From Escherichia phage RCIP0319: a stretch of DNA of 64,000 nt. Location of the stretch: the sequence record PV464738.1, one strand, 5' to 3'. Shown one piece after another: positions 6,585 through 7,006 of this stretch (the stretch's first letter is position 1; each line of letters begins with the position of its first letter). A model generated the notes under the pieces. It did not search any database and was not told where the DNA came from. It saw nothing but the letters and a program-made list of their open reading frames with translations. A program made the position numbers and the translations under genes.

Positions 6585-6627
6585 ATCGCCTGGCAATGGA
6601 TTGCCGCAGGATTTTACGCGTATAATG

Positions 6628-6890
6628 ACGTATCATCCGTATCAAGTAAGTAGTTGTTTTCAAAAGAATCTTACGGATGATACGGATGATACGCGTTGCC
6701 GCGATACTTTATAGGAATTCAAATAAATTAATTTAAAATTATATATCTAATTTAATTTTATTTTTTTATAAACTCTTATATATGAAAAGTATCCGTATCA
6801 TCCGTATCATCCGTAGCACACCAGTGATAGCGCGGCTTATACACCGATACGGATAAAAATACGCCTCATTTTATCCGTATCATCCGTATC
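6628..6890. repeat. Iteron-like cluster of 9-bp units (CCGTATCAT / ATGATACGG) in both orientations flanking an AT-rich spacer
   Basis: TACGGATGATACGGATGATACG at about 6672-6693 and its reverse complement CCGTATCATCCGTATCATCCGTA at about 6793-6815, with further copies near 6631-6646, 6847-6856 and 6875-6890; AT-rich core about 6717-6790. Confidence 0.6.
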
Positions 6891-6948
6891 ACACTAATTA
6901 AGGCGCGGCTATATCGGTTGTTATACATATTCAAACCATAATTATTGT

Positions 6949-6977
6949 TTGCCTAAGTTTTTTTCATTAGATATAAT
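6949..6977 (+). promoter_or_regulatory. Sigma70-like promoter upstream of the scaffold/protease gene (TTGCCT, 17 bp, TATAAT)
   Basis: -35 and -10 hexamers with 17-bp spacing about 30 bp upstream of the start at 7007; GAGGG RBS. Confidence 0.4.
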
Positions 6978-7006
6978 ACACAATACTTATTTGAGGGTGG
7001 ATGCGA

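What the first reader, a model, noticed from the sequence alone, without database searches (positions are those of the whole stretch)
6590..6990. Iteron-like inverted repeat cluster with AT-rich core inside the structural gene block
Seen in sequence: about 400 bp of non-coding DNA between a head-block gene and the scaffold-like gene contains the 9-bp unit CCGTATCAT in at least five places and both orientations, including a 22-bp arm TACGGATGATACGGATGATACG and its exact reverse complement about 100 bp away, flanking an AT-rich core with AATTAATTTAAA. A 29-mer from this region recurs identically at about 60688. Inference: the architecture resembles an iteron-type origin or a strongly regulated promoter bound by a phage DNA-binding protein; a sigma70-like promoter lies just downstream.
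Basis: partly seen in the sequence, partly recalled or inferred. Interest (0 to 1): 0.7.

Follow-up and report, generated by a model that had tools for sequence, protein, structure and literature searches.

The report
Second copy of phage packaging-site module
The repeat cluster is real and is one of two copies of a conserved non-coding DNA module in PB1-like phages; the other copy, next to the small-terminase gene, is where the phage chromosome is cut for packaging, so this copy most likely binds the same phage protein without serving as the main cut site.

Summary

The window is a Wifcevirus, a PB1-like E. coli myophage. The cluster (6.6-6.9 kb, upstream of the head maturation protease gene) is a paralogue of a second module at 60.44-60.97 kb, upstream of terS.

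Independently determined genome ends map inside the AT-rich core of that second module:
- Wifcevirus: WFH and Mansfield direct terminal repeats
- Myosmarvirus: MyoSmar and MTx
- Pbunavirus: JG024 long reads and Ab28

The two-copy arrangement recurs in five lineages. Each lineage has its own repeat sequence, shared by its two copies. All also share polar GCCGC/GCGGC words around the core.

This points to a phage-encoded sequence-specific binding protein. The best reading is an auxiliary, apparently uncut terminase-recognition site placed just upstream of the protease/capsid promoter (confidence about 0.45). A P4 ori/crr-like two-site origin remains a serious rival (about 0.3).

"Origin" is neither shown nor excluded. 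The link to the packaging site was missed.

The parts
6602..6607 (.). TGCCGC, outer left copy of the family-wide polar word (WGCCGC left of the core, GCGGCW right of it)
6626..6644 (+). Outlying double unit TGACGTATCATCCGTATCA (first unit degenerate)
6669..6696 (-). Left arm: tandem 9-bp units (TACGGATGA x2 plus a partial unit). It includes the 22-nt inverted-repeat arm at 6672-6693 and lies within the 29-mer 6666-6694 shared with 60688-60716
6697..6702 (.). TGCCGC, inner left copy of the polar word
6703..6790 (.). AT-rich core (about 17% GC). It contains AATTAATTTAAA at 6727-6738. It is paralogous to the core of the terS-side module, which holds the genome end
6791..6818 (+). Right arm: three tandem 9-bp units, ATCCGTATC ATCCGTATC ATCCGTAGC. 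It includes the second arm of the 22-nt inverted repeat (6794-6815)
6832..6837 (+). GCGGCT, right copy 1 of the polar word
6846..6891 (.). Further inverted pair of units: GATACGGAT(AAAA) at 6846-6858 facing (TTTT)ATCCGTATCATCCGTATCA at 6869-6891
6905..6910 (+). GCGGCT, right copy 2, inside GGCGCGGCTATATCGG. A similar block (GTCGCGGCTACATCG) lies at the same distance upstream of the protease gene in PB1 and TropicalSun
6949..6977 (+). Sigma70-like promoter TTGCCT-17-TATAAT for the protease / structural protein / major head protein genes. It is the positional counterpart of 14-1 P014 (mapped TSS)
7001..8410 (+). Head maturation protease gene (relatives annotate the start at 7007)
60443..60652 (.). 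Outlying units of the terS-side module: GATACGGAT at 60445, and an inverted pair CTTACGGATAGG...TTATCCGTATCATGG at 60620-60655
60683..60716 (-). Left arm of the terS-side module. It contains the identical 29-mer (60688-60716)
60719..60829 (.). AT-rich core of the terS-side module (17-22% GC). The left boundary of the direct terminal repeat, which is the physical left genome end, maps to 60764|60765 (...AACTCC|ATTTTGAATTAATTTAAA...)
60830..60844 (+). Right arm of the terS-side module, CGTATTATCCGTAAG (14 of 15 complementary to the left arm)
60867..60946 (+). GCGGCW words at 60867, 60913 and 60941, plus further units AATACGGATGATACGTAATGATACG at 60872-60896
61125..61598 (+). Small terminase subunit gene (homologue of E217 TerS, PDB 7UXE, E=1e-31)

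Best explanation
The 6.6-6.9 kb cluster is the protease-side copy of a two-copy cis-acting DNA module that characterises PB1-like myophages (Wifcevirus, Myosmarvirus, Pbunavirus and uncultured relatives).

Each module is dyad-symmetric. Outer polar words (WGCCGC on the left, GCGGCW on the right) and inner arrays of a lineage-specific 8-10-bp repeat in opposite orientation surround an AT-rich core of about 100 bp.

The other copy sits directly upstream of the small-terminase gene. The terminase cut that makes the left genome end falls in its core: this is the left boundary of the direct terminal repeat in Wifcevirus and Myosmarvirus, and the start of the packaging series in Pbunavirus.

I infer that the shared parts (arms, polar words, bendable core) are the loading platform of one phage-encoded sequence-specific protein complex. 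The most likely candidate is the terminase recognition apparatus: a TerS ring, alone or with a partner.

On this reading the protease-side copy binds the same complex but lacks the cut-site context and the G-rich/C-rich flanks of the terS-side copy. It would therefore act as an auxiliary, uncut site. Possible roles are pairing or looping with the packaging site, or buffering and timing terminase availability next to the promoter that drives the protease, structural-protein and capsid genes.

Shown: the paralogy, the co-variation, the conservation, the position of the genome ends, the TerS identity and the promoter counterpart.
Inferred: which protein binds, and what binding at the protease-side copy achieves.

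Layered confidence: about 0.85 that this is a functional protein-recognition paralogue of the packaging-site module; about 0.45 for the full mechanism, with terminase as the binder and an auxiliary uncut site.
For: 1. The two clusters align over about 300 bp, covering arms, core and flanking blocks. They hold all matches to the double unit and 16 of the 21 ATCCGTA heptamers in the window.

2. Genome ends map in the core of the terS-side copy:
- WFH has an exact 3,701-bp terminal repeat that starts at the base aligning to window 60765.
- Mansfield's PhageTerm repeat starts at the same place (PMC6753283).
- The right repeat boundary carries no motif.

3. The same holds in other genera:
- JG024's long-read start at 59,376 and Ab28's inferred end are the same bond. 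It lies between the arms CCTAATTTCC and GGTAATTTGGTAATTTGG.
- The MyoSmar and MTx repeat boundaries fall between the arms of the Myosmarvirus module.
- The geometry is similar in all three genera: about 32-46 bp from the left arm and about 70 bp from the right arm.

4. The downstream gene is TerS. The module-terS linkage holds in all six lineages examined, whereas the primase-helicase gene is adjacent in only four.

5. Lineage-specific repeats are shared by the two modules of each genome. The 9-mer sharing matrix is diagonal: 25-63 within a lineage, 3-16 between lineages, 4-8 in shuffles (examples).

6. The polar words show 27 of 27 copies in the expected orientation. The modules rank first and second in a genome-wide scan of the window and of PB1.

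7. Arms plus core show 3.1% variable columns among Wifcevirus genomes, against 14.8-46.3% at third codon positions of the flanking genes.

8. In 14-1 the right arm of the terS-side module occupies the -35/spacer of promoter P040, which drives a terS mRNA. A protein bound there would also control terS expression. Excess TerS lowers E217 infectivity (PMC9611059).
Against: - No binding data exist, and purified E217 TerS showed no appreciable DNA binding in vitro (PMC9611059).
- No end or nick has been reported at the protease-side copy, but I could not examine reads.
- Dyad-symmetric repeats around an AT-rich core are equally typical of replication origins.
- Because the whole module is conserved, the constant distance from arms to cut does not prove that the arms position the nuclease. 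The cut could be specified by sequences unique to the terS-side copy.
- A role for an uncut second terminase site is conjecture. The only precedent I know is the T4 gene 16/gene 19 model, cited from my own knowledge.
- Part of the within-genus conservation may reflect a generally low-divergence block that extends into the protease gene.
Confidence: 0.45

Rival explanations
1. Two-site replication origin. Both modules are initiator-binding sites (iterons) flanking a DNA-unwinding element, recognised by the phage primase-helicase or another initiator. This would resemble P4 ori plus crr, or SPP1 oriL plus oriR. The packaging cut merely shares the AT-rich core of one of the two sites, or is coupled to replication there, as at the T7 right-end origin.
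For: - The layout is dyad-symmetric, with repeats in both orientations around a 17%-GC core.
- Polar GCGGCW words point away from the core on both sides. This orientation is what would be expected for priming or loading signals of diverging forks (inference).
- There are two copies per genome carrying the same lineage-specific repeat, as with P4 ori/crr (own knowledge).
- The terS-side copy lies directly downstream of the primase-helicase gene in 4 of 6 lineages.
- A strongly G-skewed stretch is transcribed towards the core at 60100-60600.
- The single strand can fold into a stable hairpin (-33 kcal/mol, z=-8.8).
Against: - There is no skew inflection at 6.7 kb. In Pbunavirus the skew minima lie in the replication-gene block, not at the modules (PMC12390725).
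- The protease-side copy sits among late head genes, far from any replication gene.
- Module-primase adjacency is lost in Wifcevirus and in one uncultured lineage, whereas module-terS adjacency is never lost.
- Genome ends map in the core in three genera, a fact this reading leaves to coincidence or to an extra assumption.
Confidence: 0.3
2. Upstream regulatory region of the protease/capsid operon. The repeats are operator or enhancer sites for a phage transcription factor that times or boosts the sigma70-type promoter at 6949-6977. The same factor controls the terS promoter at the other module.
For: - The promoter is predicted here and mapped at the homologous place in 14-1 (P014).
- In 14-1 the right arm of the terS-side module overlaps the -35/spacer of P040, which drives terS.
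- A block around GCGGCTATATCGG lies at a similar distance upstream of the protease gene in three genera.
Against: - In the finding, the arms lie 130-330 nt upstream of the promoter, too far for simple occlusion.
- Only two loci in the genome carry the repeats, although many other late promoters exist.
- The promoter inside the right arm is not a shared feature of the two copies: no TSS was mapped inside the protease-side module of 14-1.
- This reading does not explain the core, the symmetry, or the genome end in the paralogue.
Confidence: 0.15
3. A structural or relic element with no function of its own. It could be a duplicated piece of the packaging site kept similar by gene conversion, a cruciform-forming palindrome, a MITE-like insertion, or an RNA hairpin (processing or termination site) in the head-gene transcript.
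For: - A 22-nt perfect inverted repeat gives a stable fold.
- The two copies share a 29-mer, which could support recombination.
- An assembler broke a metagenomic contig exactly at that repeat.
Against: - The protease-side module is present at the same syntenic place in all relatives down to about 44% protease identity, and is absent beyond that.
- Its repeat changes together with that of the terS-side copy.
- It is as conserved as first and second codon positions.
- Extra repeat units outside the hairpin arms (6626-6644, 6846-6891) are not explained by an RNA or DNA stem.
- There are no target-site duplications or dispersed copies.
- There is no Rfam match.
Confidence: 0.07

Closest known systems
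Phage P1 pac site and SPP1 pacL-pacC-pacR (own knowledge of the classical literature)
   Same: - Short repeated recognition elements lie on both sides of a central, bendable region where the terminase cuts.
- The site lies next to the small-terminase gene.
- Packaging proceeds towards that gene.

The terS-side module at 60.44-60.97 kb fits this on position of the end, flanking repeats and terS adjacency.
   Different: - The finding itself is a second copy 16-20 kb downstream, among head genes, with no reported end.
- No P1 or SPP1 counterpart of such a conserved second copy is known to me.
- TerS binding is untested here and was negative in vitro for the E217 homologue.
- In two genera the outcome is an exact 3.6-3.7-kb terminal repeat rather than headful permutation.
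Lambda cos (cosQ-cosN-cosB with R elements and an IHF site; own knowledge)
   Same: The order is cut site, then repeated small-terminase binding elements, then the small-terminase gene. Repeats occur in both orientations and there is a bend between them.
   Different: No cohesive ends are reported here. The repeats flank the cut on both sides. A distant second copy exists.
T4 gene 16 pac site and its homologous sequence in gene 19 (Black's synapsis model; own knowledge)
   Same: There are two homologous sites in the structural-gene region, one at the small-terminase gene, proposed to be bridged by small-terminase rings. E217 TerS rings are thought able to stack through a C-terminal helix (PMC9611059).
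   Different: - The T4 sites are short stretches inside coding sequence and are not known to be conserved modules with an AT-rich core.
- The T4 model itself is not firmly established.
- Nothing here shows synapsis.
Satellite phage P4 ori and crr, and SPP1 oriL/oriR (own knowledge)
   Same: Two separated clusters of the same short repeat, with AT-rich DNA, are both bound by one initiator (in P4, a primase-helicase). PB1-like phages encode a primase-helicase, and its gene abuts one module in most lineages.
   Different: - There is no evidence of initiation at either module.
- One module contains the packaging cut and always adjoins terS.
- The other lies among head genes.
"AT-rich boxes and conserved intergenic motifs" noted in PB1-like phages (PMC3008698, citing Ceyssens 2009), and the putative JG024 pac position (PMC10913387)
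   Same: These are the same intergenic regions in Pbunavirus. The 59,376 read-start peak lies in the core of the terS-side module.
   Different: Those papers left the motifs unexplained (a sigma-factor site was suggested). They did not connect the two regions with each other, with the read-start peak, or with the terminal-repeat boundary of the E. coli and Serratia relatives.

Membership tests
Terminase recognition site (pac/cos type) | A mature genome end or packaging-series start maps within the site | tested here: not met
   For the finding (6.6-6.9 kb), no deposited or published terminus maps here. WFH, WFC and Mansfield ends are at window 60764|60765 and about 3.7 kb further right. Sequencing reads could not be examined. 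For the paralogue at 60.7 kb the feature is met in three genera.
Terminase recognition site (pac/cos type) | Lies within or next to the small-terminase gene | tested here: not met
   The finding lies between a 45-aa ORF and the protease gene. TerS is at 61125-61598, so only the paralogue meets this.
Terminase recognition site (pac/cos type) | Repeated recognition elements flanking a bendable or AT-rich centre | tested here: met
Terminase recognition site (pac/cos type) | Bound specifically by the small terminase | not testable with these tools
   The only relevant datum is negative: E217 TerS showed no appreciable DNA binding in vitro (PMC9611059). I do not know which DNA was tested.
Iteron-type replication origin (lambda ori, plasmid iterons, P4 ori/crr) | Multiple copies of a short repeat next to an AT-rich unwinding region | tested here: met
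Iteron-type replication origin (lambda ori, plasmid iterons, P4 ori/crr) | Replication starts there (skew switch or marker frequency) | tested here: inconclusive
   Cumulative GC skew follows gene orientation, with no inflection at 6.7 kb. Skew is a weak indicator in phages, and no marker-frequency data are available.
Iteron-type replication origin (lambda ori, plasmid iterons, P4 ori/crr) | Located in or beside the initiator gene, with the initiator binding the repeats | tested here: not met
   The finding is flanked by head genes. The paralogue abuts the primase-helicase gene in 4 of 6 lineages, but not in this genus. Binding is not testable here.
Operator-controlled sigma70 promoter | -35/-10 hexamers with a mapped start in a homologue | tested here: met
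   TTGCCT-17-TATAAT at 6949-6977. 14-1 P014 has its TSS at 13257 at the homologous place and drives the protease gene.
Operator-controlled sigma70 promoter | Regulator sites overlapping or adjoining the promoter | tested here: not met
   The nearest repeat unit ends at 6891, 58 nt upstream of the -35 hexamer. The main arms are 130-280 nt upstream. At the terS-side module of 14-1 the arm does overlap P040.
Miniature inverted-repeat mobile element | Terminal inverted repeats with target-site duplication and dispersed copies | tested here: not met
   There are only two copies, at the same syntenic positions in every lineage. No duplication flanks the arms.
Known structured RNA (Rfam) | Match reaching a family's gathering score | tested here: not met
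   Best hits score 20-32 bits against gathering scores of 50-211 (hairpin-shaped miRNA models). There are none at the second cluster.

The most novel reading that the evidence does not exclude
PB1-like phages, including the therapeutic Pbunavirus group, may use an obligatory two-site system. The packaging site next to terS would have to pair with, or be licensed by, its paralogue 16-20 kb away in front of the capsid operon. Alternatively, the module may be a dual-purpose origin-plus-packaging element, so that replication initiation and the first terminase cut are coupled. Either way the protease-side copy would be an essential cis element of a kind not described for tailed phages, apart from the unproven T4 synapsis model.
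Probability: 0.3. Interest if true: 0.8.

Novelty: new variant of a known kind. Interest (0 to 1): 0.6.

Why it matters
- **It settles a contradiction.** Published reports on Pbunavirus genome ends disagree: defined ends, no ends, or a possible pac site. The comparison places one conserved cut point, with a recognisable sequence architecture, across Pseudomonas, Serratia/Erwinia and E. coli relatives.
- **It gives a function-related handle on known but unexplained DNA.** The conserved "intergenic motifs" of these widely used therapeutic phages have been noted since 2009-2010 without explanation.
- **It matters for phage engineering.** People who rebuild or reboot these genomes from fragments need to know which non-coding DNA must be kept and where the ends are.
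- **It could expose new biology.** If the second copy is required, it would reveal a two-site control of packaging or replication in tailed phages. This can be tested directly with the BASEL Wifcevirus isolates that grow on engineered E. coli K-12.

Tried and rejected
- **DnaA box, IHF site or sigma54 promoter readings of the repeats:** rejected on reading the sequence. There is no adequate consensus match, and Enterobacterales phages of two genera carry different repeats, which argues against a shared host factor.
- **Chi-like protection by the G+T-rich flank:** there are no Chi-like words in 60100-60600. One exact, correctly oriented Chi lies at 61772, but four exact sites in 64 kb is near the chance level.
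- **GC-skew evidence for an origin:** skew tracks transcription only.
- **Known RNA families:** none.
- **A metagenomic contig ending inside the cluster:** it stops exactly at the edge of the shared 29-mer, so it is an assembly break and not a physical end.
- **Right boundary of the terminal repeat as a third module:** it carries no motif.
- **Literature searches:** I found no origin or packaging-site assignment in Wifcevirus or Pbunavirus. The E217 terminase paper itself is not held.
- **Xanthomonas XcP1:** it has the gap upstream of the protease gene but no clear repeat family. Its TerS was not retrieved by the TerS search, so it could not be paired.

Full report
**The observation.**
- The 22-nt arm TACGGATGATACGGATGATACG (6672-6693) has an exact reverse complement at 6794-6815, 100 nt away.
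- The 9-bp unit occurs eight times on both strands between 6628 and 6892.
- A two-unit probe finds 8 matches in the window against 0.01 expected. All 8 lie in two places, 6626-6892 and 60691-60718.
- The spacer is 17% GC and contains AATTAATTTAAA.
- The 29-mer at 6666-6694 recurs exactly at 60688-60716.
- A TTGCCT-17-TATAAT promoter-like site lies at 6949-6977.
- The interval has no ORF of 40 aa or more between 6715 and 6986 and matches no Rfam family.

**What the genome is.** The window is about 98% identical to Wifcevirus phages: WFH, FEC19, ECML-117 and Mansfield, E. coli myophages of about 68 kb. The cluster lies between a 45-aa ORF and the head maturation protease gene (phrog_3778, E=1e-171). 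The protease gene is followed by a virion structural protein and the major head protein.

**The second cluster is a paralogous module that holds the genome end.**
- The 60.44-60.97 kb region aligns with the finding over about 300 bp: flanking blocks, left arm, AT-rich core and right arm.
- WFH's record carries an exact 3,701-bp direct terminal repeat. Its first base, in ...AATTAACTCC|ATTTTGAATTAATTTAAA..., corresponds to window 60765, inside the AT-rich core between the arms.
- Mansfield's PhageTerm-defined 3,673-bp repeat begins at the same place (PMC6753283). Korf et al. report about 3.7-kb repeats for WFC and WFH (PMC6563267).
- The right repeat boundary is the same bond in WFH and Mansfield and carries no motif.
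- The gene 360 nt downstream of the end is the small terminase, a homologue of E217 TerS (PDB 7UXE, E=1e-31).

**The arrangement is family-wide and the repeats co-vary.** Distant relatives keep a 370-550-nt non-coding gap upstream of the protease gene.

| Lineage | Lineage-specific repeat | Protease-side cluster | terS-side cluster |
|---|---|---|---|
| Wifcevirus (window) | ATCCGTATC | 6626-6892 | 60440-60970 |
| PB1 (Pbunavirus) | GG(T/A)AATT(T/A)GG | 12.67-13.0 kb | 58.98-59.17 kb, upstream of ORF76 (the TerS homologue) |
| Erwinia TropicalSun (Myosmarvirus) | TTACTTTTCGTTTTTT | 8.85-9.14 kb | 60.05-60.29 kb, weaker, upstream of its TerS homologue |

- In PB1 all eight motif copies in 65.8 kb lie in the two clusters.
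- Two uncultured lineages from IMG/VR show the same pattern with yet other repeats.
- An unbiased 9-mer comparison of protease-side gaps with terS-side regions across six genomes is strongly diagonal: 25-63 shared words within a lineage, 3-16 between lineages, 4-8 in shuffles.
- The gap, the AT dip and the spaced inverted repeats are present down to about 44% protease identity. They are absent in more distant relatives, where the protease gene abuts the previous gene.
- All modules also share a short polar word, WGCCGC left of the core and GCGGCW right of it. It occurs 27 times in six modules with none in the wrong orientation. A genome-wide scan for that pattern ranks the two modules first and second in the window and in PB1.

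**Genome ends in the other genera fall in the same place.**
- In JG024, 36 of 161 long reads start at 59,376 +/- 5 (PMC10913387).
- Ab28's record was opened at a fixed read terminus (PMC4482731). It ends ...cagcgaaaat and starts cgattgc....
- These are the same bond, between the arms of the Pbunavirus terS-side module.
- MyoSmar's 3,559-bp and MTx's 3,566-bp PhageTerm repeats begin between the arms of the Myosmarvirus module, 14 bp apart from each other in homologous coordinates.
- In all three genera the end lies about 32-46 bp from the left arm and about 70 bp from the right arm.

**Constraint.** Among six to nine Wifcevirus genomes the arms plus core (6669-6892) have 3.1% variable columns. 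Third codon positions of the flanking genes have 46.3% and 14.8%. The 5' half of the protease gene is also a low-divergence block, so this argument is weaker than the cross-genus one.

**Transcription.** Published ONT-cappable-seq of 14-1 (bioRxiv 10.1101/2023.10.13.562163, supplement) shows the following.
- P014 (TSS 13257) lies just upstream of the protease gene and produces a protease transcript. This matches the window's 6949-6977 site.
- No other start is listed within the protease-side gap of 14-1, 12,770-13,322.
- In the terS-side module the right arm occupies the -35/spacer of P040, which gives a 1,227-nt terS mRNA.

**Interpretation.**
- Well supported: this is a conserved, protein-recognition-type cis module present twice per genome, and the terS-side copy is the packaging cut site.
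- Not known: the binding protein.
- I favour the terminase recognition apparatus for three reasons: the ends map in the module, the module never separates from terS while it does separate from the primase-helicase gene, and the layout resembles P1 and SPP1 pac and lambda cosB.
- The tandem 8-9-bp spacing is compatible with successive subunits of a TerS ring. This is inference only.
- The protease-side copy lacks the cut-site context, the in-arm promoter and the G-rich flank. It would then be an uncut auxiliary site.
- The strongest counter-evidence is that E217 TerS did not bind DNA in vitro (PMC9611059).
- The dyad-symmetric iteron/AT-core layout with two copies also fits a P4 ori/crr-type origin, which I keep at about 0.3.
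- Regulatory-only and non-functional readings fit less of the evidence.

**Novelty.** Earlier papers noted AT-rich boxes and conserved intergenic motifs of unclear function (PMC3008698) and a possible pac position in JG024. I found nothing that links the two intergenic regions, the read-start peak and the terminal-repeat boundary across genera. I class it as a new variant of a known kind: a pac-type recognition module with a conserved, distant second copy.

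Noticed in passing
window 6348-6357, 6587-6596, 60595-60604, 60670-60679 (also 12809 and 44615 on the minus strand): The word CGCCTGG(M)WW occurs 6 times against 0.88 expected. Four copies sit just left of the two modules. It resembles the second, non-sigma70 promoter motif of 14-1 (CTGGG about 5 nt before the TSS, PMC10914365). The copy at 6587 is not conserved in the WFC clade.
   Followed up: partly
window 60100-60600; PB1 58.62-58.80 and 59.2-59.5 kb; TropicalSun 59.86-60.04 and 60.3-60.5 kb; L042: The terS-side module, but not the protease-side one, is preceded by a strongly G-rich (G+T-rich) stretch with GC skew up to +0.86. 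In Pbunavirus, Myosmarvirus and one uncultured lineage it is also followed by a C+A-rich stretch, which forms the long leader of the terS mRNA. The purpose is unknown.
   Followed up: partly
window 59800-60666: Only 3 of 28 Wifcevirus genomes align across this stretch. In the others homology starts at about 60666-60690, right at the left arm. The module therefore marks the edge of a hypervariable early-gene region.
   Followed up: no
WFH (L004) 3701|3702 and Mansfield (L001) 3673|3674; about window 64465, outside the window: The right boundary of the terminal repeat is the identical bond ...GGGTCTTT|TGGTGCG... in two independently analysed phages. It has no repeat motif, so the two ends of the repeat are specified differently.
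   Followed up: partly
L050 / L026 (IMGVR_UViG_3300045988_152943, contig end): A 68.5-kb metagenomic contig ends exactly at the edge of the 29-mer shared by the two modules (window-equivalent 6668). This is most likely an assembly break at the repeat, not a physical end.
   Followed up: yes
TropicalSun gp14 and gp87, MyoSmar_007, JG024 gp77/gp78, Mansfield_001; window ORFs 6556-6714 and 60353-60760: ORFs annotated or callable across the modules overlap repeat arms, AT cores or skewed flanks, and are probably not genes.
   Followed up: no
window 60930-61598 versus 61125-61598: WFH annotates TerS as 210 aa from an upstream start, while Mansfield annotates 157 aa. The alignment to the E217 TerS structure begins at residue 3 of the short form, which supports the start at 61125. 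Two sigma70-like sites at 61044-61090 lie just upstream, like 14-1 P041.
   Followed up: partly
window 61772-61779 (minus strand): An exact Chi sequence lies 1 kb inside the left genome end, oriented to be read by RecBCD entering from that end. With four exact Chi sites in 64 kb this is not beyond chance.
   Followed up: yes
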